Origin: Antedon mediterranea
Lineage: Eukaryota > Animalia > Echinodermata
Reading direction: 5' to 3'
DNA length: 64,000 bases
Assembly (NCBI RefSeq): GCF_964355755.1
Contig: NC_092680.1
Location: forward strand, 17,245,045 to 17,309,044
Below the pieces are notes generated by a model. That model saw only the letters and a list, made by a program, of their open reading frames with translations, was not told where the DNA came from and did no database searches. The position numbers were made by a program, and so were the translations under genes. This document shows positions 10,401 to 64,000 of the stretch, piece after piece; the first letter of the stretch is position 1, and each line of letters begins with the position of its first letter.

Positions 10401-13400
10401 AGGTGTATCTGTAAGTCATGTAACTGGTTTCAACCCCTATGACAAGAGCGATCAGGGCAAGTTATTATGGGAGGATCTTCACGAAGATGGGCAATTAGAA
10501 AGTCCGGCTGGTAAAGCATTAGTGTTTGTTTTGTGTTGTTGACTCTTTTAAAACTATCCTCTCATTTCTCCAAGAATTTTTAAAGCTCTGTCTACACTAT
10601 CAAACTAGTTTGACAAAACAAGTGTGATGTGCCTAAATATGGTAGTGATATGACATCATCGTGTCCATATATGGGCACATCACATTTTTTTGTCACATAA
10701 AGTTTGATAGTTTTACAGAGCTTTACTTTAGATCGGTCTTTAGAATGATCTTCTTGTTTTGAATGTGTCAAGTTTTGGCAATGAGAATTGTTCATGACAA
10801 TTCAGCTTACTACTACAGTATATGGTCAGACATTTGTCATTCTCATAAATTGATTTTCTCAAATTCAGGACCGACAGACAAGACCAAAAAGGGAACAGCA
10901 ATCGCTGCCGCCGTAGCTGCTCAAACGACTGTCACCCCAGGCAGCAAAGGAAAATTAGAGTTTGTACTAACTTGGGATATGCCGAATGTTCATTTTAAAA
11001 GCCAGAGGAGGAAATACACTCGTCGCTATGCACGCTGGTTTGGTAACTCTGGTAACGCAGCTCCTACCTTGTCTTCTTATGCTATCAATAACTATGCAAG
11101 TTGGGAAGAGAAAATCGAGGCTTGGCAAAACCCAATTTTAAATAATCCGTAAGTATTGGTATATTCAGTATGAAAGTGAATTATTAAGGCACATAAGTGT
11201 ACATTTTTTAGGTATTTTAAGCAGAGCTTAAAGGCTCTGTAAACATTGGTAGAGGCATAGAGATATTATAGTAAGCTCATCATAATATCTCTATGGTAGA
11301 GGCTAGATGTGTTCAACAATGTTTCAATCATTGCATTGTCAATATTATTGTTGTGTAGTAGCTGTGTGCTGCCAAAATGATACTAATTACTTAAGATGTT
11401 ACATAACCTTTTATTCAACATTATGTAATGTACGGTATGGCATTGTTTATAGTGAGCTTCCTGATTGGTATAAATCTGCGTTATTCAATGAACTCTATTA
11501 CATCTCTGATGGTGGAACTATATGGGTAGATGCATGTGAAGATCAGCCTACCTGTAATGGTGAGGTTATCACTGAAAACCCGAAACCAGCTCATGCTAAA
11601 CTGATCAAGGAGTATGGCAGGTTCGCATATTTAGAAGGTGAGTATACTATATAGGATTCGCATTGTGCACGCTCTGTTGACTAGTGACAGGTACGACGCA
11701 GCGCAAGTACCTAACACAACATAAGTGATTTGACCAATCACAAGTGATGGATTATTCGAAGAGTCAAATAGCTTGCGTTGCGCGTACGTCCTGTCTTTGC
11801 GTCTCTAGTTGAAACCACGCTTTAATACGAACATAGTAGGTTAGTAAAGACATGGGCAGTTCTGAAATGTTGTCCTATAACATTATATTACATTACCCTG
11901 CAAATGCACTGTAGCTTAACATCATGGATTCTTATCCTTGACAGGTACTAGTATTTTTATTATGACATAAACGCTACTACTAACTAAAACTAGGAATAGT
12001 TTTATTCTTATAATACGTTCAAACCCCTAAATCTCTGTCTACACTATCAAACTTTATATGACAGAAAAATATGATGTGCCCATGGACATGATAATGTCAT
12101 ATCTTCACCATATTTGGGCATATCACTACCATATTTGGGCACCTCACTCTTTTTTTGTCAAATTAGTTTGATAGTGTAGACAGAGCTTTAGGGTTTTGAA
12201 ACAACAACATTCTATTCCAGCTACAGTGGTCTGTAGGGCATCAGCATATTCAGAAAATTCTAAGTTCATGTCAGCATTTTTCACCACACCGTTTTTCTTT
12301 ATCGTTCATGAAAGAATGTATTTGTTATTGCAGGGCATGAATACCGTATGTACAACACGTATGACGTACATTTCTATGCATCATTCGCACTAGCAATGCT
12401 GTGGCCAAAACTTGAACTATGCATACAACACGACTTTGGTAATCATATGTTTTTTATGTCCGCTTTTTATCTTAATAAATCAATAGGCATTTTTCTATAA
12501 ACTGAGTGAAGGATTTGTGACCTAAAAAAAATTGCCCTACAATCAAACACACAGTATGTGTTTGTGTTGTGTGGCTATCAATTGGTGTCACATATTATAC
12601 TTCATCTCCCTATAGAGGGACATACAATAGGTGGACATTTTTTGCAGAATTGTGTATTTTAACCAGTAAATTGTATAGTTAGTGTAGAAGTTCATTCATT
12701 TTACTTTTATTTCGGAACGTACATCCATAGTTACAAAATCAATTGCATCAGGTAAGAAAAAATTTAAATAAAAAAGGCAAACACACACAAAAAAGACACC
12801 GGTATCAGATTATCTCCATCATTTTGTTACCATAATACATTCTATCATTTCATTTTTGCTAGCAAACATTCTTAGTAACAACGAAAAGACAGATTAACAA
12901 ACATGTCACTAGCACTAGGCAATCTTATGAGTTTTTATGACAAAGCAAGATCTATGTTTTTTTTAAATAGGTATGTTTGTTGAACATGCGGATGAGGAGG
13001 TGTTTAAAGAGTTAAACACAGGTAAAGCAACACAAAGAAAACTACTGGGATCTGTACCTCATGACATTGGTGATCCAGGTAATATATTTAATTTGCCTTG
13101 GCATACCCTTGTTTATTATACTCTGTCCATCAAAATAGAACCAATGAAGAACTTCTATGACATTTATTTTAAATGATTAAAAAGATAGAGCGTTGTCTCC
13201 CAGATGATCATTGTTAAGCTCTGTCTACACTATCAAACTTTATGTGACAAAAAAGTGTGATGTACTTAAATACACATACGCAAACCCTGAAAAATCTTGA
13301 AAAGAAAGCATAGTTGCACGCTATTTGATTACTATGATTGGTCAGTTTAATACCAGGGCAATACACGCGCGCTCAGTAAGAAATCTGATTATCTCGGATG

Positions 13401-17665: not shown

Positions 17666-17934
17666 AGGACAACTTGACCGAGGACCATATTTTTACAACG
17701 TATAGGGATGTACCTATGAATTTAGAACAATCGCGAGATTAAGGATATCGCCGCACACGCTCGCCGTACAGCCGTCGCCGTAAATTTTGTGATGCACCTG
17801 TGACGTTACAGCAATGTACGGCGACGGCTGTACAACGAGCGCGTGCGGCGATATCCTTAATTTCGCGATGGTTCTGAAATCATATGTACATCCCTAATAC
17901 GTTTTTAAAATATGGTCCTCGGTCAAGTTGTCCT
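17666..17934. mobile_element. Almost fully palindromic MITE with TTAA TSD and AG..CT termini (Kolobok-like)
   Basis: TTAA|AGGACAACTTGACCGAGGACCATATTTT ... AAAATATGGTCCTCGGTCAAGTTGTCCT|TTAA; arms of ~115 bp; sits inside an older Mariner-like MITE. Confidence 0.85.
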
Positions 17935-19510: not shown

Positions 19511-19830
19511 TAATAATAATAATAATAATACCACATTTATATAGCGCCCTTTTCATGAGTAATCATGCTCAAAGGCGCTTTACAATCATTATTACACCAG
19601 TATTTGCTTTGGGATCAAACACGTATGGAAACATACTCCCATAATGCAGCCGGTAACCAGCGCAAAGTTGTGTCTAGATCTAACTGGGTACCCATTTATA
19701 CACCTGGGTGGAGAGAGGCAACGTAAGTAAAGTATCTTGCCTACGGATACAAGCAATGCGGCGAGAGTTGGATTCGAACCTAGGTCTGACGATCGGTAGT
19801 TCAACGTCCAACGCACTGCGCCACACGCCC
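19511..19830 (-). mobile_element. tRNA-derived SINE with L2-like tail, copy 2
   Basis: Reverse complement of the 14315 element with an intact tail hairpin; flanked by (CCC)TGAA on both sides; interrupts a Mariner-like MITE. Confidence 0.85.
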
Positions 19831-21278
19831 TGAAGAGGGGTTGACTATATATATATATTATATATACACTTCTTCACCCCCACATTCGTTTCACACGAAA
19901 GTGTCCCTTAAATAGGGGTTTTATTTCAGCAGTATATTTTACAATATTTTAATGTGAATGTAAAAATAAACTTTAAAAATTCACCTTGTCTTTATACCTT
20001 GCCTTAGTCATATGTATATATATATATATATATATGTGTCAATCTTTATAGTGCTTAATGCTCAAACCGAGTCACATTTTTACCCAGGTCACGTTTGGAC
20101 CGCTCCCATAACGCAGCTAGTAATCAGCACAATGATGTTTGATTCTACCACGTACTGTACCCATTTCCACCTTGGTGGAGTGAGTTATGTCACGGTTATA
20201 ATATACTGCTATAGAAATTGATTTCAGGTTTGTGCTGTACTTAATGGTAAAAAGATTAAGAACTGTACAGTACCGTACTTACTTTTGAAGAAATTAACAA
20301 ATGAAAAAAACACTCATTATATATCTAAACATATTTCTTATACCTATAGAATTAAACTTGTCTTTTGAAAACTGCACCAGGTCAGTGGTGTATTAAAAAT
20401 CCAGGTGGCTTCCTGTTATATTTCTTATTTACTTGTTTATGATTTTGTTTCTAAACAGTGATTATAATATTACTTTTCTTGTGTAACATATTATAAGAAT
20501 GAAAACTAAGAAAACCAAAATGAATATTTGGTATTTCAGTGCTGGAGTTTGCATGAATATAAGGTTTGCACGAGATGGTATTACATGCCTTGGTATAGTA
20601 TTTAAATTGCCAATTTAAATCAATCGCAATTTTTACCAAAGACCTTGCTAGAGTTTATGTATTACTATGGAAATTGTAATATTAAGACTGTCTGAGCCAG
20701 ATTGATTTTTATAATTATTTGTTAATAATTATTAGTATATATAGTGCAGTCTCAACTGTTTTCTAGTGTGGCTCTGATAATAGTATTTACAAATTATTTT
20801 GAGGATCAGATAGAGGTCCAAGGGCTTATGGTTTTTTTATATTTTTTTTAGCAGCTCTTTGCGAGTCATATGAAACATAGATCAGTGACTTGGCCTACAG
20901 TGGCAAATTTCTGCTAAATTACCATTGACATATTTTGTGTATTTATAATCCCTGAGTGACGTTAAGTCAACGAATCCACCCTACACCCCTTAATAGTAAA
21001 TGAAAACGATATTATACGAAAATAGCCCCTGTTCTGTCTTGGATTTACTATAGAATATGCCAGGTTCTGTATAGATTACGTTTAGGTTTAAAGTGCAAAA
21101 TCTTGCCATATTTAAAATATAGCAACAGTGTGCAAACAATGTGTAGTGAACATTGTACTAGTCTAAATCAAGTTATTTTACGTATTATTACATACTTTTT
21201 ATTTCAAAATACAGTAGACCCTTTACACCTTTAAGATCAAACAATATTTCCTCTTAATAAAGTTATCTCATTTGTTAA

Positions 21279-34900: not shown

Positions 34901-37900
34901 TACCAAGCCACAACTCAACTGAGTTTATTAATTTAGGCTATTTGGCTGGAAGCACAGTTTTCATATTGCAGGATTTACCATTGTTCACCTGCTCTCTACC
35001 TGCTGCTTATAAATACCTATTAATGCTCTTTAAGTGATAACATCATTTGGGGAAAAAAAAATAAACACAACCAACCATAGCATAAAACTAACTTCAAATA
35101 ACGAGAGGCAAGCAATCATGCAACGTTTCGATCTTTATTTGATCATCATGATTCAAAGTTTCGATCTTTATTTGATCGATGATCAAATAAAGATCGAAAC
35201 ATTGAATCATGACTTGCCTCTTGTTGGAGTTAAGTTTTATGCTATGTTATTTAAACATAATCAGTGCATCTATTGGATTTTGGAAACAACCAACCATGCT
35301 ACTGTCACGTCATAAACTACACAACCCAAAAAAAAACATGAATTAACTAAAAGTGAATACATTAATTTGTTTAGGATACAGCGGCAATAGGATTGATGAT
35401 TGGATAGTTGTAGTATATTGTTTAATGTAAGTCTAGCGTGAACAATGGCTTGTTGGCCAAACCAGGATATCCTTAATATTCTTGTACGGTAGTTTAAATT
35501 GTGTTTGTATCCAAATTTTATGAAGTATTCTGACATAATAAAGTGCAAGTATAAATAAATAAAAGTCTAAGTCTAAAGCTCTGCCTACACTATCAAACTC
35601 GTTTGGCAAAAAAAAGTTTGATTGCCCAAATATGGTAGTGATATGCTTAAATATTGGTAGTGGTATGACATGTCTATATATGGGCACATCACATTTTTTG
35701 TCACATAAAGTTTGATAGAGTAGAGAAATCAGTGAGTAATATTATTATATAAATAATCTTGACACTGTAAACAACCATCATTTAACCCAAGACTATCTGG
35801 TCCCAACAATAGATTGCTTCGGCGATGCATTGTTGACGCGACCTTTAAACTTTGGTGTCAGATTTTAAACATGCATTGTGTCTGCATTGAAAATTCAACA
35901 TCTCCTGAACATCGCATAAAAAATAATTTTACTGCAAAATGTTCATGAAAGATTATATCACACATCACTGTATAACTGTTTATTAAATAAAACATGTTCT
36001 GATCTTCCAAAAGCAAGCAAAAAAAGCTGGATAGTGTATAAACATAGACATAGGTGCGCATGGAACCATCGCCACATACAATGTCAATAGACATGTCGTT
36101 TTGCATGCATGAAGGTCAAAACAATTTTTCAATTTTGAAACATTCATACAGGCATGTGGGCTAAAAACATTTTCCAGTGTGGTACTCAAGTTAGGTCATG
36201 TGAAACCCATCGCTGAATCCGTCAGGAAGGATAGCCAATATATCAGTATAATTCCTTTCCTAATAGTTTTGATTTCATCTACTTCCAGTTTCGTTGTACT
36301 TTATTTCCTGTTTGAGGCGGGTGTGGATTTTCCCTTTTTAACTAAAATGTATTTTTACCTACAGGTATAATTTCCTCCATGGTAGTGTTACCGAGATTAC
36401 TCCCTAAGAGATTGACACTATAGATAAGACCTTATTGAATATACACTCACCATTAAAACTAAAGATTTAAAAAAATAGTCCAACCAAATACCCACTCACA
36501 ACCCCCCCTCCCGCCTGCAGTTAAGATAAAGGATACCATTGTTAGAAATACTGACTATGTAACTGTGTAAAAACGCCTGGAATCACATTCTTGCAATGCC
36601 ATTTCATGATGCATGCGATAGAGTTGAAGTACTTGAATGAGCTTTCCTTCTATACTTTTGTTGCTATTAACATGTGTTTATTTTTTCTATCAAGGGATAT
36701 TTTTTTCTCAATCCTGGGACAAAATATTTTATCTATACAGGAAGTATAAAAAATAATATAAAATGAAACTGAGGTGGGTATTTACAGACAATATTGTTTG
36801 AATATGGTGGAATGCTGATTTTGTAAATTCTATAACTCTCCTTGTCTAACTGTATTCAATTTAATACTTTATAATGACTATAGTTTGCTTACTCTGCCAA
36901 TGCATGATCTAACTGGAAGACAACAGCCTTAAGAACGATGTGTGATGAAGTGGTGTTGGGGTTATGTAGCTTTGCTGTGTATAAAGCTATTGCTGCTCCA
37001 CCTGAATCACGATTTGGCTGTAAAGAGAAACAAAAAAATCATAATTAATAATTGTATGTACAAATCTTTACTAACTTAAGCTCTGTGTACACTATCAAAC
37101 TAGTTTGACAAAAATAGTGCGATGTGTGCAAATATGGTAGTGATATGCCTAAATATGGTAGTGATATGACATCATCAGTCCATATACAGTATGGGCACAT
37201 CACATTTTTTGTCACATAAAGTTTGATAGTGTAGACAGAGCTTTACTTTCAGCACAGTATCATGTACCATACAATTTGAGAACAGTTACTAAATTCCCTT
37301 TATTTTAACTTTTAAGATTTTTAAAATATTGTATGTACACTGTATGTAATTCATAGCAACGGCTTTGTATATACTGCAATAAATACAGTAAATAAATAAA
37401 AACTGGAAATCAATAGGCGTGACTATTGGTATTGGCAACAATAACAAACATTAGGACAAAAACATAATAAAAGAAATGCTCTGTAATATAAATTTTCTCT
37501 GTACAGTCAACTCTCCCAATACCGGACACCTTTGGGCCGGCCAAATAAGTCTGGTTTTCCGGAAAGTCTGGTATTCGGAATGTGTTTTTAATGGTAAAAT
37601 TAAATTTGGGACCTTTTGGTCCTCAAAAAAAGTCTGGTATTGGGAGAGTTTCTGGTTTTCAGAGAGTCCGGTATTGGGATAGTTGACTGTATACATGTTT
37701 GTTTTATCTAGATTTCAACACAATATCAAAATATTTTATATAATCTTTTAACCTCTGTCTGTGTAATATCACTTAAATATTCATTGATAAATAGATAGAT
37801 AGACATATATACTGTAACCTTCACCATATTGTTTATCATTGCAATAAAAGTGGGTTGCCCCCACAAAAGAGAAAAAAAAAATAAAAGAAATGTTCTTGTC

Positions 37901-40900: not shown

Positions 40901-43900
40901 GCTAGGCCTAGGCAGCCAAGCACCAAGCTACACGTACCTGCGCTTCGCTCAAATTTACCGCAGTCATATTTTGGACGCGCCTCAATATTTCGTTGCCATG
41001 CGAAACAGATTTTTTATGGCTTACGAAAACAAATACGTGAGCATGACGTATCCGTTTTCGTTATCGTATCCGTAAGATTGCGAAACCTCTCTAATGACAA
41101 ATCCTCATTCACGAGAAGTACCCAATGTCCCTATAAAATAATGCGTTCTACTGTGTTCATAATTAAATTAGACAGAAGATGGCATCAGACCAGGATGAAA
41201 AATAGCATGTGATATTCTTAGTAATTGTATTGATTTGTTTTAAAATTAAACATGAAATTCCAAGAACAATATGAATTTCCTGAATCGGATTATAAATTGG
41301 ATTAAAATTATGTTCACGTCACTGGAGTAATTCATTAATGACTATGGTATATTAACCATGAAAACAGTACATTAAACTTCATGTGACAACAAATCTGATG
41401 TGCCCATATATGGACATGATGTGTCATACAGTATCACTACCATATTTGGGCACATCACACTTTTTTGTCATATTTACTTTGATAGTGTACAGTAGATAGA
41501 GCATTAAGCTATGAATGTCATATTTGTTTGAAATTGCGGTCACTTACAAACTTCTCAAAACAAACAAAATTTTTAAAAACAAATGAACATAAATGATCAT
41601 AATTGTACAGTAATTATTATGATAGAGAATTTTTTATACCGTTTTTGCTATTTTTTTTCAAAAGTTCATGGCTGCCAGCCACAGAAAATTTGGAAATTCG
41701 GAAAGACCTCCCACAACATTTCGGAAGTAGCCTATTAAGTAGGCTATTTGATGGGCTGTAAAAAGATCATTACATACAGTACATTCATAATTGGCACCTT
41801 ACCCTGGCCATGGGAAAAGAGGTAGCGTGTTCAGCGTGTTGGTTAGAGTTAGAGGTACACACTGGTTCAGATACTACCATTGTGAAATATAATAAATACT
41901 CTTTAAATGATTAAAGTGATTAGATTAGAGTGATTTTAAAAATGCTTAAAAATGTTAATTCTACCGAATTTCACAAACAAAGCAATCAGAAGGAGTCAAA
42001 AGGTCGAAATCGCATGCAAATTTTAAACTTAATGTGACTGAAATTGTCATATAAAGTGTGTAGTCTTCAGGGGAAGTTTAAAGAAGTAAATAAATAATTG
42101 TTGTACAATGATGTTTTCACAGGTAGTGGATAAGATACAGTACTACACAAGATGATCCCATAAAAACATATCCTTTGGGAAAAATCGGGAGTAATGGCCA
42201 TAAATGAACTTTCCATGACTTCTTCTTAATCCTATAAACCACTTTCTACAGTTTCAGATGTGGCAAATTGTTCAATCATGCTTAAAATCAAGACTACAAC
42301 ATGTAACTGGTTATTTGCTGGCAAGGAGCAGACACACTAGGCCCTGATCTTTGTGTCATTGGTACCAGGCTGCCATTTATCAACACATTTCCACCAATGA
42401 TTGATTTAAATTATAACCATAATCAACTCTTACCACAAATTCAATTTATGCTTGCACATTTTAAATTCTTTAATTTTCATTCACTGACGAAAATAACATA
42501 ATTAGCAATTTACAAGAATGAGTATCTACTGTATGACCTTTTCATGACCCCCAACAAAGAAGAAATTCGCTGGCAGTATCGAAATTGCTAATTTACAAGC
42601 TTTATGAAATGTATAGGCATAAAATATTTGAGCAATTTATACAGTAGCATCATTTTCCTTTAAACACTCAAAATAATGTATTTTTGAAAAAATTATTTAA
42701 AAAAGATGAATTTTAAAAAAAACCAAAATAAAATGTAATTTTTTAAATAAGTTATTCGCTTGATTTCACTTCCAATTGATCCTTCTTTCCTTCAAATTTT
42801 CAGGTAAACAATTTTAGTATAAAAAAAACCTTGTTTGAAATATATTTCTTTCTATATTATTTCAATAACTATACACAAGAATTAAAATGTGAATTATGTG
42901 GAAGAAAATCATGATTATTTCACTACTATATGCCTCTCACTCAGGTACACTTCTTTTGTGCGTTGCTTCCAAGGACAACTATATTTGACAATATTTTATG
43001 AAGATCTGTCTTCACTAGATAATATGAATATATAATACAATGTTTGCTTATCTTAAGCTCTGTCTACACTAGTTTGAGTTTGATGTGTCCAAATATGGTA
43101 GTGATGTGTCCAAATATGGTAGTGATGTGTCCAAATATGGTTGTGATATGTCCAAATATGGTTGTGATATGTCCAAATATGGTAGTGATATGTCCAAATA
43201 TGGTAGTAATATGTCGAAATATGGTAGTGATGTGTCCAAATATGGTAGTGATGTGTCCAAATATGGCAGTGATGTGTCCAAATATGGTTGTGATGTGTCC
43301 AAATATGGTTGTGATGTGTCCAAATATGGTTGTGATATGTCCAAATATGGTAGTGATATGTCGAAATATGGTAGTGATATGTCGAAATATGGTAGTGATG
43401 TGTCCAAATATGGTTGTGATATGTCCAAATATGGTTGTGATATGTCCAAATATGGTAGTGATATGTCCAAATATGGTAGTGATGTGTCCAAATATGGTAG
43501 TGATGTGTCCAAATATGGTAGTGATGTGTCCAAATATGGTAGTGATATGTCCAAATATGGCAGTGATGTGTCCAAATATGGTTGTGATATGTCCAAATAT
43601 GGTAGTGATATGTCCAAATATGGTAGTGATATTACATCATCATGTCCACATCGTATTTTTGTTTCACATAAGTTTAATAATGCTGACAATACAAGTTTAA
43701 GTCACTTACCAATATTGTGAACTTGCCACTATGCAACTCCTTATTTAAGTGTTCTTCTGTGGGGACTATTTGTATAAGACATTCCTTATGTCTCAATGCC
43801 TATTAGACATACAAAAAATATCAATACAAGTACATTTAAATGAGTGTTCTTTTAATATCCTTAATAATACAGTATAATCAGATTATACGATCAGATTTTG

Positions 43901-52240: not shown

Positions 52241-52588
52241 AGAGAGAGAATTCTCCTCCAATTTTTTTTCTTCAAATTTTTTCTTTTAGGCGGACGAACT
52301 ATGGCCTACTAATGTTTGTTACTGAAAAGCTTTCTTTATACCTGTTTATTGTGCAATTCATGTGGGCCATAACGGTAGTAAATTCAACAACAAAAACCAA
52401 AATTTATAAAATACAAACAGTGAAAGGCACAAGCAAAAGCAAAATTACTAATTTTAATTTTCTACAATTCATCATTACTGTTAATCCCCTACAATAATTA
52501 TAGTAATGTTACAATTTTTTCCAGATGCGACGACTAACGTTAGGCGGTTTTTAGTCCATCATAATCACCAATCAGCTTCATATGCTTA

Positions 52589-52848
52589 TGTTATGTCTAG
52601 CTATGGTGCCAGTAGGCAAGATGATACATTTGTTTATCAGTATACACTTCCTATGTTATCAGTTGGTTTACAAATACCACCTGTAACTATACCAATTTGT
52701 ATGAGTCATATAGATAGTAGAATTGTGAATAAAAGAGTTGTTAAAAAGTAGTCGAAGTGAATGCATCTATCTTTGAGTCAGCTTTACAATACTTTACATT
52801 ATATTACAATACATTACTACTGTACAAAGGTACTGGGGGTATATAACA
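52589..52848 (+). repeat. 5' LTR
   Basis: TG..CA termini, contains AATAAA; direct repeat of 59000-59259. Confidence 0.95.
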
Positions 52849-52851
52849 AAT

Positions 52852-52870
52852 TGGCGACGAGGATCGGATT
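52852..52870 (+). other. Primer-binding site, complementary to the tRNA-Ser(GCU) 3' end
   Basis: TGGCGACGAGGATcGGATT, 3 nt after the 5' LTR; metazoan tRNA-Ser(GCU) ends ..AATCCCATCCTCGTCGCCA. Confidence 0.8.
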
Positions 52871-52889
52871 TTAAATTCTAAGTGATACA

Positions 52890-53435
52890 ATGGCTGGAAT
52901 TTCACCACCAGTACCGTTTCTACCTACTCCAGGCAAATCAACGTTAAAGTTTGAACAATGGTTTGAATTTTTTACAAATTATACTCTTGCGTCTGGAAGT
53001 GACCGATGGAATGCTGAAAGAAGAAAAGCACTATTACTACATTGTCTTGGTACTGAGGGTCAACGTATTTACAGCTCTTTACCAGAAAGAGAAATTGATC
53101 CAAATGATGATGTTAATTCATATGATGCAACTGTTGCCAAATTGCGGGCACATTTTAACCCAAGATTAAACGTTGTAGCGGAAAGATACAAATTTCGTCA
53201 ACGTAGACAACTCCAGGATGAAACATCAGATGAGTACGTAAGAGAACTTCGACAATTATCAATTTCATGTAATTTCGGTGTAATAGCTGATGAAATGATA
53301 AGAGACCAGTTAGTTGAGAAAACTAATTCTTCCCGTATTCGCGAAAGATTACTTCTGGAACCTGAACTTACATTAAATACTGCCATAGAAATTGCAAGGC
53401 AATGCGAACATGCTGCAAAAGAATGCCAAATAATA
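52890..53435 (+). CDS. Gypsy gag, N-terminal (capsid) part, truncated by insertion
   Basis: RRKALLLHCLG, ERYKFRQRRQ..ETSDEYVRELRQLSISCNFG, MIRDQLV..IRERLL are typical retrotransposon Gag motifs; the frame runs into the inserted element and stops at 53462. Confidence 0.85.
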
Positions 53436-55635
53436 CAGTGGGAAAGCCACTTCGCGTTTTGACCGTTAAATCGTGTAAAATCGACTTACTTCCGCATTGA
53501 CGATTTTGAAGCGCCACCTATCGTTGAAAACTGAAACCACGATTTTTCGTCGCCTAGCAAATAAGTGCTGTTTTATTTTAAGCTCTCATGAATATTTAAG
53601 AACCGCCCAACATTACCTATTATGGTAAAAGCATTTCCTAATAAGTATAATTGAATAACCAATCGGTTTCTTTCAAAGAAACCGAAGCTAATACAATACA
53701 TTCGGCGACTGAAGTCGGGACTCGTGAAATTTATAAATGTGGTACGATTTGACTACTGTGTTGTTGTCCATTTTCTGAATAGTCGGAGGTGCATCCCAAC
53801 AAATTAAAACAATTATAATCAATTGTTTTATCAAGAATAATATTAGTTTAATCGAGTATGATATATTTCTATCCTGTTCAAAATTTGTTGGTGTATTCTC
53901 AGGCCTCGAAAGGTAGGTACATTTTCTAGCTGTGAGCGTGGTTTCGGCAACGCGAGACACGTGTGTCAGTATAGGCGATAGCGAGACGTGTGTTGTACCA
54001 TGGATTAAAGAATAGAATTCTTTAATCCATGGTTGTACTGTGTTGATGCTGATCCGATAGTCGTTAAGTTGTACTGATTACGAGTATCATTGGTCCTGGC
54101 CGGCCTAGCCTGGTGATCTGATCCCCCCCAAAAAATACTTTTTTTCAATCAGTATTAATATATTATTTGATTTATTAGGCTCAATAGATGCCTAGCTAGG
54201 CTACTAGTAGGCCTAGGCCTAGATTATAAATAATAATAGTAAATACTGTAATTTAATTAATAAAATACAGCTTCCATTTGCCTTACTTTTATGTCATCAT
54301 ATAATATATTATAATTATATATACAACCAGACATTAAAATTTTTTAAAATAATATTTATTATTTTTTCTGACACTTTCAGGAATCGTTGATGATGCAGAG
54401 TTCTTTTTCTTTGTGACTTCAAACTGAGAGTGAAGTGGATAAAAAGATGACACTGTCATACCCAAACTATAATTTAATTATTTAAAACAAAATGTTGAAT
54501 TACAAAAATGTATGTTGCAGAGGATTTAGATGAATATTACAATACAAATATTTATGTTGAATGCAAACCTACTACACTATACTCTGTAAATTATGTTATT
54601 GTCATGTGGTAGACCTTAAAAATTGAATATTTATTGTATGTTAGGGCTATTTTATATTTTATTATTATTAATACTGAATTAGTTTAATATTTATACTACA
54701 ATGTATTAATTTATATTATAGTATACAGTACTACTACTACTAGTTTGTACATGTTTTTACCCAAAAAAAATGAATAAATAATTTGTTATTCAATCTAATT
54801 GCTTGTTTGTTCATCAATAGCAAAACAATTGTAAGCAAGTATATAACAGTTCTTGTTAGCCGCTTATTTCAGGTCATATTATTAGTATTAGCTAGGCCCG
54901 ACGCGCCCGATCACAACGTCACTAAGTGACTTTCCGCCCCTGGAACCATCGCTCGCTAATAGGGCTAGGCCTCGGACTCGTATAAAAGCTATTATAATAG
55001 TTATGATAAATATTCCTCAACTAAAATGTATACTGTGATAAATAAACAAGTAATAATATACGTTGTATTGGAATGTATTTATTTATATGAATTCTTATAT
55101 GCGGACAATTATAAACATCGCGTATATCGTTCGCTATAAATAAATTCATAAACACGATGACGATGAGTTTACAAAATGGCGGTTTCGCTAGTTTTCGATG
55201 GAACAAATAGTGGTACCTTTAGTTTGAATAGTCGGAGCTGCATCCCAACCACCGAATTTTGTATCTTAATATCGTATTCTGTAGATTATTAATTTTTCTA
55301 ACAGGGATTTTAAATTCAGGACTGTTCAATTTTTCTAAACATTTTATTTTAATGATTTTCTAGGGTACAATTTCGGAAAAAAGACATTGGTTGATTTTGC
55401 CGTTAAATTACAGATTATCGTTTTGTTCAAATACATTTAATTTTACATGAGAATATATTAAAACCATTTATGAATTTATTTCACTAACAATATTTTTCCG
55501 ATAATCAGCTAAATTTACAAATATTGTGTTTTTCCAACACCCTAAAATTGAGCAATTTTCAACTAAATTAGAAAAGTAGGGCGCCCTCTCCGAGTCGAAA
55601 TTTGACACGATTTGTCGACTGGCTGTCCCACACTG
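53436..55635. mobile_element. 2.2-kb non-autonomous DNA transposon nested in Gypsy gag
   Basis: AATA|CAGTGGGAAAGCCA ... TGGCTGTCCCACACTG|AATA; imperfect bipartite TIRs; removing it restores the gag-pol frame; no coding ORF. Confidence 0.85.
53999..54031. mobile_element. 33-bp hairpin with 7-bp TSD (P-element-like remnant)
   Basis: GTTGTAC | CATGGATTAAAGAAT-aga-ATTCTTTAATCCATG | GTTGTAC. Confidence 0.75.
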
Positions 55636-55639
55636 AATA

Positions 55640-58600
55640 GGTAAAGCTGAACTACCATTACCTGTTGAGCAGATACGAAAGAGTAATTACAAACCTAAAC
55701 AACAGCCAGCAAAATACAAATCCAGTGAGTACTGTTTTCGTTGTGGTTCGAAATCGCACAAAGCAAATGATGTCAAATGCAAGGCAAAGAAAGCTAAATG
55801 CAATAAATGCCGTAAGATAGGACATTTTGCTAGTGTTTGCAGAAGTGTTGAAATTGAAAATATTGATGAAACCATGTCTGTTAATGTGATGGTTAACAGA
55901 AAATTACGCACTGACGTATTGATAGGTCATTCAGCAAAAGTGAACATGACCATAGATACTGGTTCACCAGTTACAATTCTACCCAAAAGAATCTATAATC
56001 GATATTTTGTCAACGAAGCTCTACAAAAGGCGTCAATCAAACTGATGACCTACTCCAAGGAACCGATACATGTGCATGGATTTGTGAATTTACCAGTTAC
56101 CCTTGCCAGTGAGCCAGAGAATAAAGTGCACGCGAAGATTTACATTGTAGAAAAAGGATCGCCTATTCTCGGGATGGACTTGATTAGCAACCTAAATATT
56201 AACATTGTGAAAGGACAAATTGCTTACGTCCAAGTTGCTAAAGATATTACTACAATTGATGATGCTGAATACAAGCAAGAACTGAAAAAGAACTATCCAA
56301 GATTGTTCAATGGGAATGTGGGGCTCGCGAAGGATTTCGTACATAAAGTTATGGTCCGCGAACACTGTACACCGAAAATTCAGAAATTACGAAGCTTACC
56401 ATTTACGGTAAGAGACAAAGTTGCTAAAGAACTTGATAGGTTAGAAAGCCAAGGAATTATAGAGAAAATTAATGCAAGTCCTTGGGTAAGTCCTATTGTC
56501 GTAGTAGGTAAAAAATCCGGTGATGTACGTATTTGTATAGATTTAAGAGAAGTTAACAAAGAACTTGTAGTAGACCAATTTCCTTTACCTGATATTTCAG
56601 AATTATTCAATTCATTGCATGGTGCTACTGTATTTTCTACGTTAGATCTTAGATCTGCGTACCATCAATTGACATTACATAAAGAAAGTAGGGATTTAAC
56701 TGCTTTTATTACGCATCAAGGCCTTTACCGTTATAAGAGAGTATGTTTTGGTCTTGCTTCCGCACCATCTGCATTTCAGAAAACAATGAGTTCAATCCTA
56801 ATGAATGCAAAGGGGGTACGTTGCTATCTTGACGATATTGTTGTCTTTGGTAAAGATGAACATGAACATGCTATTAATATGGAAAATGTTCTAAGTAAAA
56901 TACAAAAGGCAGGGTTAACGCTAAACCTTGATAAATGCAAATTTAGAGTGAAACAAATTTCATACTTAGGTCATACAATTTCGGCTTCAGGACTTCAACC
57001 TGATAATGACCATGTAAAAGCCATAATCGAGGCAAAAATTCCAAACAACATCTCTGAATTGAGAACTGCTTTGGGAATGTTTGGATACTATGCAAAATTT
57101 GTACCAAATTATGCGACTACATCAGAACCATTAAGGTATTTGCTAAGGAAAGAAAATGCGTTTGTGTGGGGTACTGAACAACAAGCCGCATTTGATAAAT
57201 TAAAGAATAGTATTGCTAAAAGTACTGCATTGAATTTGTTTGATCCCAAATTACCAGTGATTGTTACCACTGATAGTTCAGATTACGGAATAGGCGGTGT
57301 GCTAAGTCAAATTAAGGATAACATTGAAATTCCTATTGCATTTACATCCCGTACATTAACAAGTGCAGAGCGTAATTATTCAACGGGAGAGAAAGAAGCA
57401 TTAGCTTGTGTATATGCTTGTAAAAAATGGTTTAATTACTTATGGGGTAACAAATTTACATTACGTACTGACCACAAGGCTAATTTAAAATTGCTAAGTT
57501 CATGTGCTACAGGTCATAAAACCATGCGAATTGCTAGATGGGCAGAGTGGCTACTTAATTTAGATTATGTGATTGAATATGTTACAGGGCAAAATAATTC
57601 TGTTGCCGATGCTTTAAGTAGACTCCCCATAACAGAAAATAATCCTTCTGTTGATAATAGTGATGAATATGTATTAAGTTATATATTGGATGCTAACACT
57701 TGCATTACAAAACAAGAGTTAATTAAGGAGACAAATACTGATCATGTGTCAACATTACTTAAGAAGTATATTACAACTGCATGGCCAAGTAAGAAAATGT
57801 TAAATGAAGAATTAAATCCTTACTACCTTGTAAAAGATGAATTGTGTTTAAATGATGATTTAATTATGAGGGGGGAGAGACTGGTAATCCCAAAATCATT
57901 GCAATGTAAAATAATTGATGAAGCACATACTGCACATCAAGGTATTGTACGAACTAAAAACAGGATTAGAGAACTATACTGGTTTCCTGCTATAGATCGT
58001 AAAGTAGAAGATAAAATTAAGAATTGTGAACCGTGTCAAAATAGTGATAAGACGGCTAAAACTTACAATGCGCCATTACAACCAATTGCGTTACCAGAAC
58101 ATGCATGGCAAAAAGTTGCTATTGATATAATAGGCCCATTTGAAAAGGGACCTAGAAAGTGTAGATATGCTATTGTGTTAGTTGACTATTTCAGTAAATG
58201 GCCAGAAGTTTCTTTTACTAATGATATTACATCTACATTTGTATGTAATTTTCTCGATCAGATATTTGCAAGAGAAGGATTACCAAATGAGTTGGTATCC
58301 GATAATGGGAAACAATTTGTATCCATAGAGTTTGAAAATTATTTAAAGGAGAGAGGTATTAAACACATTAGAACATCATTGTACTATCCTAAAAGTAATG
58401 GATTAGTTGAAAGAATGAATAGAACAATTAAACATACCATTCAAATGGCCAATGAAAATAATAAGAATTGGAATGAGGCCATGTTAGAATTTCTTATGAT
58501 CTATCGATCTACACCTCATGCTGTTACAGGCATATCTCCTGCAGAATTATTACATAAGCGTAAATTAATTACTACACTAAATGTAAGACCTACAGATGGT

Positions 58601-58969
58601 TACCAAAATGGAATTAAACATACTGAGGTAAAGGAACGAGTTAAAAAGTTCCAAATTAAAAGTAAGAAGTATTACGATGATAAGAAAAATGTGAGAAAAC
58701 CACAATTTAAAGTGGGAGATTCAGTACGAATTAAGAATCCGAGACATGTTGATAAATCAAGTAATAAGTTCTATACTGGAGGAAAAATTAAAAGAATTGT
58801 TAGTAATGCTACATATGAGCTAGATGATGGAAAGATCTGGAATGCTAAATACCTAACAAATGATCTAACCACACAGAAACAGAAAGATACTGTTGTACAT
58901 ACATTTGATAAAGATAGACCTAGACGTGAAGTTTATAAACCACGTTGGTTAATTGATTACACTCCCTAA
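55640..58969 (+). CDS. Gypsy gag C-terminus (two Zn knuckles) plus pol (protease, RT, RNase H, integrase)
   Basis: Open frame from 55640: CFRCGSKSH..C and CNKCRKIGHFASVC; protease IDTGS; RT LDLRSAYHQ, FGLASAP, YLDD; RNase H TDSSDYGIGGVL, YSTGEKEALA; integrase H-x3-H..CEPC, IDIIGP, SDNGKQF, NGLVERMN. No env or chromodomain seen. Confidence 0.95.
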   Translation, partial: GKAELPLPVEQIRKSNYKPKQQPAKYKSSEYCFRCGSKSHKANDVKCKAKKAKCNKCRKIGHFASVCRSVEIENIDETMSVNVMVNRKLRTDVLIGHSAKVNMTIDTGSPVTILPKRIYNRYFVNEALQKASIKLMTYSKEPIHVHGFVNLPVTLASEPENKVHAKIYIVEKGSPILGMDLISNLNINIVKGQIAYVQVAKDITTIDDAEYKQELKKNYPRLFNGNVGLAKDFVHKVMVREHCTPKIQKLRSLPFTVRDKVAKELDRLESQGIIEKINASPWVSPIVVVGKKSGDVRICIDLREVNKELVVDQFPLPDISELFNSLHGATVFSTLDLRSAYHQLTLHKESRDLTAFITHQGLYRYKRVCFGLASAPSAFQKTMSSILMNAKGVRCYLDDIVVFGKDEHEHAINMENVLSKIQKAGLTLNLDKCKFRVKQISYLGHTISASGLQPDNDHVKAIIEAKIPNNISELRTALGMFGYYAKFVPNYATTSEPLRYLLRKENAFVWGTEQQAAFDKLKNSIAKSTALNLFDPKLPVIVTTDSSDYGIGGVLSQIKDNIEIPIAFTSRTLTSAERNYSTGEKEALACVYACKKWFNYLWGNKFTLRTDHKANLKLLSSCATGHKTMRIARWAEWLLNLDYVIEYVTGQNNSVADALSRLPITENNPSVDNSDEYVLSYILDANTCITKQELIKETNTDHVSTLLKKYITTAWPSKKMLNEELNPYYLVKDELCLNDDLIMRGERLVIPKSLQCKIIDEAHTAHQGIVRTKNRIRELYWFPAIDRKVEDKIKNCEPCQNSDKTAKTYNAPLQPIALPEHAWQKVAIDIIGPFEKGPRKCRYAIVLVDYFSKWPEVSFTNDITSTFVCNFLDQIFAREGLPNELVSDNGKQFVSIEFENYLKERGIKHIRTSLYYPKSNGLVERMNRTIKHTIQMANENNKNWNEAMLEFLMIYRSTPHAVTGISPAELLHKRKLITTLNVRPTDGYQNGIKHTEVKERVKKFQIKSKKYYDDKKNVRKPQFKVGDSVRIKNPRHVDKSSNKFYTGGKIKRIVSNATYELDDGKIWNAKYLTNDLTTQKQKDTVVHTFDKDRPRREVYKPRWLIDYTP

Positions 58970-58999
58970 ATGTAACATGTGAAATTAGGAGGGGAGAGA

Positions 59000-59259
59000 T
59001 GTTATGTCTAGCTATGGTGCCAGTAGGCAAGATGATACATTTGTTTATCAGTATACACTTCCTATGTTATCAGTTGGTTTACAAATACCACCTGTAACTA
59101 TACCAATTTGTATGAGTCATATAGATAGTAGAATTGTGAATAAAAGAGTTGTTAAAAAGTAGTCGAAGTGAATGCATCTATCTTTGAGTCAGCTTTACAA
59201 TACTTTACATTATATTACAATACATTACTACTGTACAAAGGTACTGGGGGTATATAACA
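59000..59259 (+). repeat. 3' LTR
   Basis: Preceded by the polypurine tract AGGAGGGGAGAGA and followed by the TSD GCTTA. Confidence 0.95.
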
Positions 59260-60169
59260 GCTTACTTAGCTTTTGAAGGTGGTCACTATCGGCATCTTTA
59301 CAAATGTTTTTGTTCCCAATTTTATGACATCGAGGAACACACAATGGCGTTCCTCGGAACCCGAATGTTAGAATTTGTGACGTAATACGGGTGTCAATGC
59401 TCTGTTTGGAGTAGGCGGCCTACTCTCAGCTCTAGCTTGGGTTCGAATCTTTACGGAATTTTTTTTAATGGAAAAGAAAGTGTTTAGAGTTCAGTTAATT
59501 TAGGACATAGGTAAGGCGATTCCCACCGTCAAAACAATGTATAGTAAATTGTCATGATGCAAACACACTAATCGTGCTATCTACTATAGTAGGCCTATAT
59601 ATAGTATTATAGTACTGTATTATTATAGTATACTATTATAATAGGGGATGCCTCTTGCCATCGTAGGCATGTTGCGTGGGGTGCGTCCAAAATTATTGAC
59701 ACTTATGTGTGGGAGGTGCGGGTGCAGAATGCGCTACCCCTGATAACTAACAATAAATAACAAAGTAGGTCTAGTTGGAAATTAAATTGTTTTAAACGTA
59801 AAAAAGGGGGAAATTTAAAATTCATGCAGCCAGCACCAAACCACTGAAAAAAGGAGACGCCTTCGGTGTACGTGACGCACCAGATGAAGCGGATACCAAT
59901 ACAAAAATGACAATCAGTACAGTTTAACATCCCCTTCAATGTCGATCCATACTCATCATGACATACTGCAGTGTCAATCGTCAGAGAGGAGGCCAGGATA
60001 TTAATTATTATGTCTTATATTATAGGGCTAATTGACGCACACGATACGGTGTTAATTCGTCCACATGTCCGTTACAGTGTCCCGTCCGGATGTACATTAA
60101 ATGTATCCACCAGCGTCAGTTCTACCATGTTTATTCCCCCCCCCCCCCCACTATAATGTTTATTTAGGT

Positions 60170-60190
60170 CATGGAGTTACTTACTCCATG
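60170..60190. mobile_element. 21-bp hairpin with 7-bp TSD (P-element-like remnant)
   Basis: TTTAGGT | CATGGAGT-tactt-ACTCCATG | TTTAGGT. Confidence 0.7.
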
Positions 60191-60278
60191 TTTAGGTGCT
60201 ATAGATTACTTCCATCGGCTAGTAGGAGTGAGCGAGTTGGCCTCCTGAATCCATTCCGATATTAATGGCTCGTCAGGT

Positions 60279-60298
60279 CATGGAGGTATACCTCCATG
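60279..60298. mobile_element. 20-bp perfect palindrome with 7-bp TSD (P-element-like remnant)
   Basis: GTCAGGT | CATGGAGGTATACCTCCATG | GTCAGGT. Confidence 0.7.
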
Positions 60299-61242
60299 GT
60301 CAGGTACGGTAAGGCATCTTGGTCATTTGATGCGCGTAAGCCTACTTTACATCTTATTTTGAATGTGTATTGGATGCTTTAATGATGTTCGGACAATTTA
60401 ATTAAGCATGTCCGATAATTTATATTATTTGTAGACTCACACAAACCAGCATTCAATGGACAGTAAAAATGTAATTCAAAGACTTAGAGAAAATTATGTT
60501 ACCATATATACAAGGAAACTTTGTATATTTTCAAGTTTTAACAATTAATAGATATATAAATAAAGACATTATTGTTCCTCCGAAAAAGTAATTTGTTTAA
60601 AATGTATATGTTGAATATAACCAATTCAATGTCACATAGTTTTACACAAAAATTAGATTAAAAATACATGAAAAACTGTAATTTAAAGGTAAAAAAAGTC
60701 AATTTGACTGTTTAATTTATAAATGAAAGCATTTTTTTTTTCGCTTTAAAGTGATTACAAAGATAACCAATTCAAAGTCGGTCAATTATTAATATTATTA
60801 GTCCGATGATCTTCATTCTTCATGTTTTTAGGAGACAAAATAATACATCTTGAATGACCCGTTTTTATGTTCCGGTTTCTACAGGATCCTCATCATCGCA
60901 TTTAAAAATATTTTTTTATTTTACTTCGATGAAATGAAATGTGAATTATTTCGAAATAGGAAAAAACCGAGCAGCCTATTCTTTTCTTTACAGTTACTAT
61001 CAGTAAATCTTAATAACATAGAGGGCGGACTTCTAAAATATGTCGATATCAGAAGCGATTTTGATTTAAAGCTCATGCCAGAAAACTTGTTTTCAATGAT
61101 GTTTTAATAACAATATTTTACTCAAAGCTTACGAATGTTATCTTATGCGAACGAACATTTAAACGTGTCCATGAATGATGTTTTATATTCTGATAAACCA
61201 GAATAGCAATGTTGTTTAAAGGATACAACATGCACGTCATAC

Positions 61243-61271
61243 CAGAGAGATGTAACATTTACATCTCCCGG
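61243..61271. mobile_element. 29-bp imperfect hairpin with 7-bp TSD (P-element-like remnant)
   Basis: GTCATAC | CAGAGAGATGTAA-cat-TTACATCTCCCGG | GTCATAC. Confidence 0.6.
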
Positions 61272-61639
61272 GTCATACCGGCCATGTTCATACTAAAGTA
61301 AAAGCATATTTTGTAAATATTCATGATATTAGTTAATTAATTTACAGGGTTAATGTTATGTGTATTAAATTCTTGCAACTTGTGTTTTTCAGTAAAACTA
61401 ATAATGATAAAAGTAAACTTTAACTAATTAAATATACAAAAGCGATCAGAACAAAGACCATCTTTTGTCTTTTGACCCAGTCGAGTCATATTTCACATGG
61501 TAGAGAGACTTGCTGACTCAGATTAAAAGAAAAAAAAATAGTAGAAAATGTATAATTATTTCATATTAAGCTAGCAATAACATAGTCATATACGATTACT
61601 ATAATTTAAAAAAAGGAAAAATCATGTTCCTTTGTTTTT

Positions 61640-61904: not shown

Positions 61905-62078
61905 ATGGCGACGACAAGCGCTAGCGCTTTACGAGCGCTAAGCCTCGAGTACAGGAAACTGCAAGAGGAACCAGTGGAAGGTTTCAACGTGAAATTAGCC
62001 GATGAGAGCAACCTTTTTATATGGAATGTGGTCATCTTTGGACCCCCAGAAACACTGTACGAGGGTGGCTATTTCAAG
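61905..62078 (+). CDS. UBE2R2: Ubiquitin-conjugating enzyme E2 R (CDC34/UBE2R2), first coding exon; gene continues beyond the window
   Basis: MATTSASALRALSLEYRKLQEEPVEGFNVKLADESNLFIWNVVIFGPPETLYEGGYFK followed by donor AAG|GTAAAG; matches the CDC34-family N-terminus (LQEEPVEGF..IFGPPxTxYEGGYFK). Confidence 0.9.
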
Positions 62079-62663
62079 GTAAAGTTGAAAGCTAACAACC
62101 GAACGAAGAGAACGAATATGTGGTTGAATAAGCCGACCCTTTCTTTTGTTATCAAAATAGAATAATCTGTTTGATCTAATCTAACTAATGTTTGATGATT
62201 CATCATGCTTTTGTTTTGTCAGTTGTTTGTGTTTTATTTATTTTTTATGAAGACTCGTCGTGTATGAATTTACATGAAGATCTTTTAGTTTTTACTAAAA
62301 AACAGAGTCCAGATTTATTATTCAATCATATGTTATTTTTGGTATATTTGCTTGTGGTGTTGTTATATTTTTTAATTGCAACAATATTATTTCATTATTT
62401 TTAATTTTATTATTATTAAATACAATTTTAAATTTATTGGACAGTCTACGATCATAACTTTCATCAAAGGTGGTAAAATATTCTTATTGAAAAGTTACTT
62501 ACCTTACAAGTAAATTCTTTGTAGAAATATCGTGTCTTTTTTTATTCCGATGCAATTGCACTTTGAACCACACCCAACCCCAATGAACCACACCCAATCC
62601 AATGAACCACACCCAATCCAATGAACCAGGTCCGACGAATTGCCCCAATGAACCAGGTAGCCG

Positions 62664-63655
62664 ATCACTCCGGCCGCGCTTCACTCCGGCCGCCGTATCA
62701 GTTTAGCGCGATGTTATGCACTCCGGCCGCTATTCAATTCGACTTCCTGTGCAAAGGGGCTGTTAGTATGGAGCGCCCATATCTACGTTTTCTATACTGT
62801 TCAGTGTTATAACAAATTCTTGGTGAATTTAAATGGAACTAGTTGAATATTTATTATCAACAATTTTACTTTTTTCATTAACAATAACATTCAAAGAAGT
62901 TGGAACTGCTTTTTCTTTCAAACTAAACTTAACTTAATTAAATTCAATAATAAAATAATAATCAAATGCCCGTCTAATTATTGCTTGAATAACAATATTT
63001 AATTTCTTTCTATGTACATTTATTTTTATAGCTTTACATTTATTAACATTAAAAATTAGTTAAAACCCTTATAACACTTTATCGACTTGCCAGTACCCAT
63101 ACTTACTAATTATAGTTAATAACAATATGTAAAATATTAATTAATTTATTTCAAATAATCAATTATTATTGATGTTTGTTATAGTTAATAACAATATTTT
63201 CAATATTAATTAATTTATTTCAAATAATCAAGTATCCGTCTAATTAATGTTATTACCTGGAATTGTATCAAGAATTAATATATCATTTTTGTACAGTCCA
63301 ATTTACAATGATTTTATATTTTAATTTATATATGATAAAAATAATATGACATATAGGGTACATTGCAATAAATTACATTAATTAATCACATTACAATTAA
63401 TATACTAGCCTATTACATTGGATAAAACACATAAATTATTTTGTTTTAGCATTAGACCTAATTTAAAACACTTGCGATGTTGTTGTGATCCTGAAAGAGA
63501 AAAAATATACTGTATGATTACAAATGTTTATTTTGATTCTCTACAAAAAACGTGTCTCAGTTGTAAAAGACTCATTGGGCGCTCCATAGCTGCGGCCGGA
63601 ATGAATCGCGGCCGGATTGAAGCGCGGCCGGAGTGAAGCGCGGCCGGAGTGATCT
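62664..63655. mobile_element. ~1-kb foldback-type element with GATCACTCCGGCCGCGCTTCACTCCGGCCGC terminal arrays
   Basis: Inverted arrays of (T/C)CCGGCCGC at both ends and an AT-rich interior; flanked on both sides by CCAATGAACCA-containing direct repeats. Confidence 0.7.
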
Positions 63656-64000
63656 GTATTCATGAACCACACCCAATCCAATGAACCAGGTCCGACGAAT
63701 TGCCCCAATGAACCACATCATATGAGGAGTATGTTGACTTTACGTGCTAACGATGATCACCCAAAGGAGATTGAGTATCCAGCTTCTCTCTCGGGCTCTA
63801 GCCTTAAAAAACAAAGAATAAAACTTATCTCTAGGAAAATTATGAGAAAAGACGATGCAATGAGTAAAGCCATGGGTTTTGTGTGGTTTAAAGAAATGAA
63901 AATGTACCATCATGCCTGAATACCATGGATAAAGAATACATTTTATGACTTTTCATCAGATTTGTTTATTTAAGCATGGCTTCCTAAATGCAAAGTAAAT

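What the first reader, a model, noticed from the sequence alone, without database searches (positions are those of the whole stretch)
60163..61278. Family of 20-40-bp hairpins with perfect 7-bp TSDs: likely P-element excision scars (or minimal MITEs) from several families
Seen: five tiny inverted repeats at 11256-11295, 53999-54031, 60170-60190, 60279-60298 and 61243-61271. All start CA (CATAG, CATGG x3, CAGAG), and each lies between exact 7-bp direct repeats (GTAGAGG, GTTGTAC, TTTAGGT, GTCAGGT, GTCATAC; four begin GT and two are GT-NNN-AC). Arms are 8-15 bp and differ between sites. Established: P-superfamily elements have CA(T) termini, 7-8-bp TSDs and a GT..AC-type target preference. Drosophila P transposase leaves 17-nt 3' TIR overhangs on the donor, so end-joining leaves up to ~17 bp of each TIR between the TSDs. 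Inference: these are healed excision sites of at least four different P families, implying staggered cleavage is conserved in this animal. Three cluster within 1.8 kb upstream of CDC34/UBE2R2, echoing the P preference for promoters. They are too short for standard repeat annotation.
Basis: partly seen in the sequence, partly recalled or inferred. Interest (0 to 1): 0.8.

Follow-up and report, generated by a model that had tools for sequence, protein, structure and literature searches.

The report
P-type transposon scars in feather star
These 20-40-letter hairpins between two copies of a 7-letter target are real insertions, one of them missing from most copies of the repeat that carries it, and they are likely healed wounds left where relatives of the fruit-fly P element cut themselves out, possibly keeping about 20 letters of each tip rather than the fly's 17.

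Summary
Observation holds. Four perfect CAT..ATG hairpins lie between exact 7-bp repeats, against 0 CA-starting cases in 150 simulated windows. The fifth ends GG and has two arm mismatches. A sixth, of 84 bp, was missed. For 53999 the 7-bp repeat is a true TSD: most copies of its host repeat lack exactly hairpin plus one repeat. The same ends occur at other loci with invariant outer arms and at least seven centre types of 28-37 bp, mostly one perfect 30-bp palindrome. This matches fly P donor-site junctions (PMC2895639 Table 1), where identical palindromes also dominate, so identical copies do not favour micro-MITEs. Best reading: end-joining scars of P-like transposons (0.75). Not shown: no parent element or transposase was found and no genome is held, so P membership rests on TSD, ends and target motif. 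The 17-nt cap is not supported: the junctions parse best from a 20-21-nt end, though templated repair could mimic this. The scan has already reported such scars on other DNA (16 findings, at least 6 genomes), some also suggesting 18-20 nt. The host is likely a crinoid.

The parts
11249..11302 (.). 40-bp hairpin 11256-11295 (14-bp perfect arms; whole 20+20 pairs with 3 transitions, centred on AGCT) between 7-bp repeats GTAGAGG, in an intron of a GBA2-like gene
53992..54038 (.). 33-bp hairpin 53999-54031 (15-bp arms) between true 7-bp TSDs GTTGTAC; member of a family with >=7 centre types at other loci
   Evidence: (joint 53991->54032, skips 40, 7 letters fit both sides)
60163..60197 (.). 21-bp hairpin 60170-60190 (8-bp arms, centre holds a 4-nt direct repeat) between 7-bp repeats TTTAGGT
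   Evidence: spanned without gaps by an X2 contig, no empty form listed
60272..60305 (.). 20-bp perfect palindrome 60279-60298 centred on self-complementary TATA, between 7-bp repeats GTCAGGT
   Evidence: contigs of all 4 runs break here (60276/60302), unexplained
61236..61278 (.). 29-bp hairpin 61243-61271 (13-bp arms, 2 mismatches, ends GG not TG) between 7-bp repeats GTCATAC; weakest member
   Evidence: spanned with 0 differences in 4 of 4 runs
35114..35211 (.). sixth, missed member: 84 bp (35121-35204), CA..TG, 27-bp arms with 1 mismatch, 30-bp centre that is an inverted copy of the right repeat plus right arm, between 7-bp repeats AATCATG; sits in the loop of a larger imperfect palindrome (35076-35246)
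53436..55635 (.). host of the 53999 hairpin: 2.2-kb high-copy TIR element (CAGTG..CACTG, 4-bp TSD AATA) with no Pfam-matching ORF
52588..59259 (+). Gypsy-type LTR retrotransposon with identical 261-bp LTRs (52588-52848, 58999-59259) and 5-bp TSD GCTTA, in which the host TIR element sits; gives a relative date
61905..62078 (+). first coding exon of a ubiquitin-conjugating-enzyme gene (CDC34/UBE2R-like by recall), downstream of three of the hairpins

Best explanation
These hairpins are TSD-flanked insertions built from the two outer tips of DNA transposons, and they are likely the end-joining scars left after P-superfamily-like elements excised. Step 1 (shown for 53999, inferred for the others): an element inserted and duplicated 7 bp, with a GT..AC-leaning target. 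Step 2 (inferred from fly chemistry): the transposase cut one strand at each element end and the other strand well inside it, so each donor end kept a long 3' single-stranded copy of the tip. Step 3 (junction pattern shown, pathway inferred): the two tails have the same sequence and cannot anneal except at short self-complementary spots (TA, AT, TATA, AGCT). They were trimmed and joined there, bluntly or with short templated fill, giving a palindrome with constant outer arms and a variable centre between intact TSDs. The scars are inert and record at least four end types. In the 53999 family the retained tail is at least 18 and probably 20-21 nt, so the cut may be deeper than the fly's 17 nt (inferred, not shown).
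For: Empty site: joint skipping exactly 40 bp with 7 letters on both sides at depth 1077, 2806 and 2175 in X2, X4 and X5, against 7-39 for single-copy neighbours; X3 shows it as a loose end. 18 contigs per run lay on the 53-bp site with unrelated flanks, no substitution rows listed, and nearly all indels at 54009-54017; the dominant form lacks 3 letters at 54014 (depth 633 of 962 and 631 of 986). Applying those indels gives lengths 28, 30, 32, 33, 35, 36 and 37; 28, 30 and 36 are perfect palindromes, and 28 and 30 join at 2-nt self-complementary microhomology. Fly P{wa} junctions with both tips span 7-44 bp, with 30- and 32-bp palindromes at 14 and 5 of 44 (PMC2895639 Table 1). P cuts 17 bp inside its ends (PMC7776569 section 7). 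Galileo and 1360 make 7-bp TSDs and Galileo's consensus is GTANTAC (PMC3698922, PMC4168063). With two 17-nt cuts, a piece of <=34 bp has no duplex left, so this chemistry could not move most of these hairpins.
Against: No parent element and no transposase with these ends was found. A 7-bp TSD with CA..TG ends is not unique to P: fungal Kyakuja (no TIRs) has both and fungal hAT7 has 7-bp TSDs (PMC12730594 passages). The window's exact 33-bp form was not among the 18 contigs per run (0 at >=95% likeness), presumably collapsed into the empty host. All read data come from one sample. The 28-37-bp range is partly imposed by the 80% likeness filter. The centre variants are also interconvertible by simple slippage. 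61243 lacks a TG end, and 35121 has 27-bp arms.
Confidence: 0.75

Rival explanations
1. Collapse products: longer palindromic or long-TIR elements with the same ends (Galileo-like foldbacks, MITEs) lost their interior by hairpin-driven deletion or by gap repair aborted very early, not at a fixed staggered cut.
For: Retained ends exceed 17 nt (18-20 in the 53999 family, up to 22 at 11256, 27 at 35121). Galileo is a foldback element with 7-bp TSDs. Fly donor sites are also repaired by homologous copying.
Against: 5 of 5 CA..TG, 7-bp-TSD hits above chance in the window are <=84 bp and none is intermediate or long. Centres cluster at self-complementary 2-4-nt spots, as in the Rad51-deficient fly junctions.
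Confidence: 0.13
2. Mobile micro-MITEs: the 20-40-bp hairpins are themselves copied to new sites by a transposase in trans, and their centres drift by slippage.
For: The 30-bp form, and probably the 35-bp form, recur identically at several loci (depth 633 and 165 against about 25-35 per single locus). All centre types differ by 2-5-nt indels.
Against: Change is nearly confined to the centre while the arms stay constant. Identical palindromes are also the commonest fly scars. No duplex would survive P-type cuts, and the internal transposase binding sites that P needs are absent (PMC7776569). That 20-bp DNA cannot bend to pair its two ends is my own knowledge.
Confidence: 0.07
3. Scars of another, non-P superfamily with 7-bp TSDs that also cuts deep inside its ends, or non-transposon templated repair at a staggered break.
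For: No transposase link was obtained. 7-bp TSDs occur in hAT7 and Kyakuja. 61243 and 35121 deviate in ends or target.
Against: The same arms recur with unrelated flanks, so they are not copied from local DNA. hAT-type footprints derive from the flank and Tc1/mariner leave 2-3 nt with a TA TSD (own knowledge). The GT..AC target matches Galileo.
Confidence: 0.05

Closest known systems
Drosophila melanogaster P-element donor-site end-joining products (P{wa} assay, PMC2895639 Table 1; mechanism PMC7776569)
   Same: CAT..ATG tips between intact TSDs; near-palindromes of about 20-44 bp; dominant perfect palindromes from 2-nt microhomology; short inserted centres
   Different: 7-bp rather than 8-bp TSD; natural alleles in a likely crinoid, not laboratory products; several end types; retained end apparently 18-21 nt or more rather than at most 17; parent element not identified
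Galileo and 1360 (P superfamily; PMC4168063, PMC3698922)
   Same: 7-bp TSD; GT..AC-type target (Galileo GTANTAC, against GTTGTAC and GTCATAC here)
   Different: described as full or deleted elements in Drosophila; one search for Galileo excision footprints gave 0 papers; no sequence comparison with their ends was made
Zebrafish Pdre2 / THAP9 (PMC10983969)
   Same: deuterostome P-like element with CAT..ATG ends that can be excised
   Different: 8-bp TSD, 13-bp TIRs; cut depth not stated in section 6 or the passages read; junction figures S5-S7 not seen
MITEs / non-autonomous TIR elements
   Same: non-coding, TIRs, TSD, multiple loci
   Different: 20-40 bp with no interior; variation concentrated at the centre; too short for P-type excision

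Membership tests
P superfamily | 7-8-bp TSD made on insertion | tested here: met
   exact 7-bp repeats at 6 of 6 sites; empty site proves duplication for 53999 only
P superfamily | CA(T)..(A)TG termini with TIRs | tested here: met
   5 of 6 sites are CA..TG; 61243 ends GG. The feature is shared with other superfamilies
P superfamily | palindromic GT..AC-type target preference (Galileo) | tested here: inconclusive
P superfamily | autonomous partner encoding a THAP + RNase H + GTP-binding transposase with the same ends | not testable with these tools
   no genome held; 0 of 93 window ORFs match; collection scans gave chance hits only
P-element excision footprint | both TSDs and both tips kept, variable centre from microhomology or inserted bases | tested here: met
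   >=7 centre types with constant arms in one family, compared with fly Table 1
P-element excision footprint | at most 17 nt of each end retained | tested here: inconclusive
   a 17-nt cap needs 9 inserted nt over 7 types, a 21-nt end needs 0; the parent end is unknown and templated fill could give the same letters
P-element excision footprint | the same site once held the full element | not testable with these tools
   one sample only; no full-element allele listed at the four sites laid
MITE | the short element itself transposes; copies related by descent with changes spread along the length | tested here: inconclusive
   identical copies exist, but nearly all change is central; mobility cannot be observed here

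The most novel reading that the evidence does not exclude
P-like transposases of a feather star cut about 20-21 nt inside their ends instead of 17, and different families in one genome may use different depths (up to 22 at 11256 and 27 at 35121). Genome-wide scars would then be a ruler for cut geometry and a natural record of germline end-joining, with no biochemistry needed.
Probability: 0.35. Interest if true: 0.65.

Novelty: new variant of a known kind. Interest (0 to 1): 0.45.

Why it matters
In the papers read, the long staggered cut is described only for the fly enzyme. If natural scars record cut depth, any genome with active P-like families can show whether that geometry is conserved or varies, and how its germline joins non-complementary tails. 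Scars are also below the size of usual repeat annotation, so P-like activity is probably undercounted. The footprint type itself is known from fly experiments, and this scan has already seen it in at least 6 other genomes. This locus adds a likely crinoid case, a proven TSD and a junction series, not a new kind of system.

Tried and rejected
Whole-genome census: no genome held. Other copies of the arms or long elements in the window: none beyond the hairpins themselves; 63924 resembles a sister end but has no partner. Empty paralogues within the window: none. Transposase in the window: 0 of 93 stop-to-stop ORFs of >=70 aa, outside two tandem arrays, match THAP or P families. Hairpin pattern in metagenomes: 9 loci, none with a TSD or full arms, so chance; viral contigs 0. 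An 18-nt end in viral contigs: 2 loci with no partner end. Templating of the 11256 centre from its flank: a 7-nt match, but 13% of random flanks match as well, so not evidence. Sequence look-ups in earlier findings: none; near-place look-up: none. Literature searches for natural P-type scars outside flies listed none; I saw only listings for most hits, and subscription papers and Repbase are not covered. PMC2817418 passages gave nothing relevant. The joint 59610->60670 and similar link short repeats and were not read as empty sites.

Full report
Observation. The five hairpins and their 7-bp flanking repeats are at the stated places. Four are CAT..ATG with perfect arms of 14, 15, 8 and 10 bp. 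The fifth (61243) ends GG and has two arm mismatches. The class is far above chance: 4 CA-starting perfect cases against 0 in 150 local Markov simulations, and 5 hits of at most 100 bp against 0.02 in 100 simulations under a looser rule. Only 7-bp repeats occur, no 8-bp ones. The looser scan found a sixth member at 35121-35204, with 27-bp arms and a centre that repeats the right TSD and arm in inverted form. All six fold better than 200 of 200 shuffles, which only restates the palindrome.

Setting. The window is animal DNA of 33% GC, with GBA2-like, CRAL-TRIO/PTP and ubiquitin-conjugating-enzyme genes. The one protein hit for a GBA2 exon, among 382 candidates, is from the crinoid Anneissia japonica at 71% identity, so the host is likely a feather star; earlier scan notes say the same. 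11256 lies in a GBA2 intron. Three sites lie 0.66-1.74 kb before the ATG at 61905, in a stretch with CpG o/e 0.83-1.27 against 0.65 for the window. The cluster is unlikely under uniform placement (p=0.009, post hoc), but promoter preference and local hopping, both described for P (PMC7776569), cannot be told apart. 53999 lies in a 2.2-kb TIR element (53436-55635, 4-bp TSD), which sits inside a Gypsy-type element with identical 261-bp LTRs.

Is the repeat a TSD? No genome is held. The run search gave 4 contig sets of one sample and one weak row. Laid on 53400-61600, three runs show a joint 53991->54032 that skips 40 bp with 7 letters fitting both sides, at depth 1077-2806 against 7-39 for single-copy neighbours; the fourth shows the same empty form as a loose end. 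So most copies of the host element lack hairpin plus one repeat: an insertion with a 7-bp duplication. No empty or full-element form of 60170, 60279 or 61243 is among the 15 of 16 joints shown. Contigs span 61243 with 0 differences in 4 of 4 runs. X4 and X5 carry 18 and 11 gap letters somewhere in 59260-60302 that the cut table does not place, and all four runs break at 60276-60302; both are unexplained. The host copy differs from most of its family at 19 listed positions while the LTRs differ at none, so the scar may predate the host's arrival here.

Family and junctions. On the 53-bp site alone, 18 contigs laid in each of two runs (16 of 36 pieces and 12 of 18 loose ends shown). They carry unrelated flanks, so they are other loci, and several match the GT or AC edge of the TSD. 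No substitution rows are listed. Indels fall at 54009-54017, apart from one contig per run whose extra arm deletions mark a sister end like window 63924. The dominant form lacks 3 letters at 54014 (7-8 contigs, depth about 630 of 960-990); next is AT put in behind 54016 (2-3 contigs, about 160). Depth is no copy number, but it suggests on the order of ten or more loci. None of the 18 reached 95% likeness, so the window's own form was not seen in the contigs. Applying the listed indels gives 7 types of 28, 30, 32, 33, 35, 36 and 37 bp, three of them perfect palindromes. I left out the sister-end contig and, a 29-bp form with an arm deletion. Listed pieces with 0 other letters support the 30-, 35- and 37-bp forms exactly; the 36-bp form rests on the indel table alone. 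The 80% filter hides longer centres and full elements, so the upper size is not measured.

Mechanism. Fly P transposase cuts at the 3' end and 17 bp inside on the other strand (PMC7776569: passages and section 7 read), leaving 17-nt 3' tails on the donor. In Rad51-deficient flies these join into the products of PMC2895639 Table 1 (passages and section 7 read). Of 66 tabulated isolates I dropped 22 that lose a tip or a TSD. The other 44 span 7-44 bp, and 19 of them are two perfect palindromes formed at AT or TA. The crinoid series has the same make-up: 30- and 28-bp palindromes from 2-nt microhomology, plus longer asymmetric forms. 60279 is centred on TATA and 11256 on AGCT. Recurrent identical copies are therefore expected of scars. 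P-type cuts would leave no duplex from a piece of 34 bp or less, which argues against mobility. Galileo and 1360 make 7-bp TSDs (PMC3698922 passages) and Galileo prefers GTANTAC (PMC4168063 passages). Against uniqueness, fungal Kyakuja has 7-bp TSDs with CA..TG ends but no TIRs, and hAT7 has 7-bp TSDs (PMC12730594 passages).

Cut depth. Earlier scan notes hinted at ends longer than 17 nt, and I tested this on my own series. Five of 7 types share the first 18 nt of the window's left arm and three share 20. A 21-nt parental end explains all 7 with no inserted base, a 20-nt end needs 1, and the best 17-nt end needs 9. Candidates came from the variants themselves and the contigs were selected by likeness to the window copy, both of which favour longer ends. 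The extra letters also repeat arm positions 12-15, so templated re-synthesis, seen in the fly table, or briefly aborted gap repair could give the same result. The parent end decides, and it was not found. After this calculation I saw notes proposing 18- or 20-nt cuts in elasmobranchs; they are unchecked and not independent support. The zebrafish preprint (PMC10983969: passages and section 6) shows excision but states no cut depth there; its figures S5-S7, which I could not see, may bear on this.

What failed. No parent or transposase in the window. Nine metagenome and two viral-contig hits lack TSDs or partner ends. Flank templating at 11256 is at chance. Six paper searches listed no description of natural P-type scars outside flies; the library lacks most subscription papers and Repbase.

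Verdict. Real, TSD-making insertions that work like fly P excision footprints (0.75). Membership of the P superfamily is likely but unproven without a transposase. The 17-nt cap is not supported, and a deeper cut is an open, testable possibility (0.35). The scan found this before on other DNA (16 findings in at least 6 genomes). Interest 0.45.

Noticed in passing
window 35114-35211: Sixth CA..TG insertion, 84 bp, with a 7-bp repeat, 27-bp arms and an inverted copy of its right TSD and arm in the centre, inside the loop of a larger imperfect palindrome (35076-35246)
   Followed up: partly
window 53436-55635: High-copy non-coding TIR element with CAGTG..CACTG ends, a 4-bp TSD and a 25-bp internal direct repeat (53776-53800, 55225-55249); superfamily not assigned
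   Followed up: partly
window 52588-59259: Very young Gypsy-type element (identical LTRs, 5-bp TSD) between two divergent genes, interrupted between gag and pol by the TIR element; other copies in the same sample lack that insertion
   Followed up: partly
window 60276-60302: Contigs of all four runs end at this hairpin, and two runs carry 11-18 unplaced gap letters upstream; could be another allele or another locus with the same hairpin and target
   Followed up: no
window 63924-63939: Lone end-like sequence resembling the sister family seen, with no partner end or TSD in the window
   Followed up: no
window 17703-17896: About 200-bp palindromic element (84-nt arms, 89% complementary), MITE-like
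   Followed up: no
window 10581-46328 (many places) and 43081-43632: Dispersed repeat family built on a 21-bp unit that also forms a 26-copy tandem array; a separate 45-bp array at 5725-6477
   Followed up: no
window 14314-14537 and 19608-19831: 224-bp inverted pair, 99% complementary, 5 kb apart
   Followed up: no
window 62564-62693 and 63592-63715: Repeated 16- and 19-bp units in direct and inverted arrangement in the first intron of the E2 gene, possibly the two ends of a 1.1-kb element
   Followed up: no
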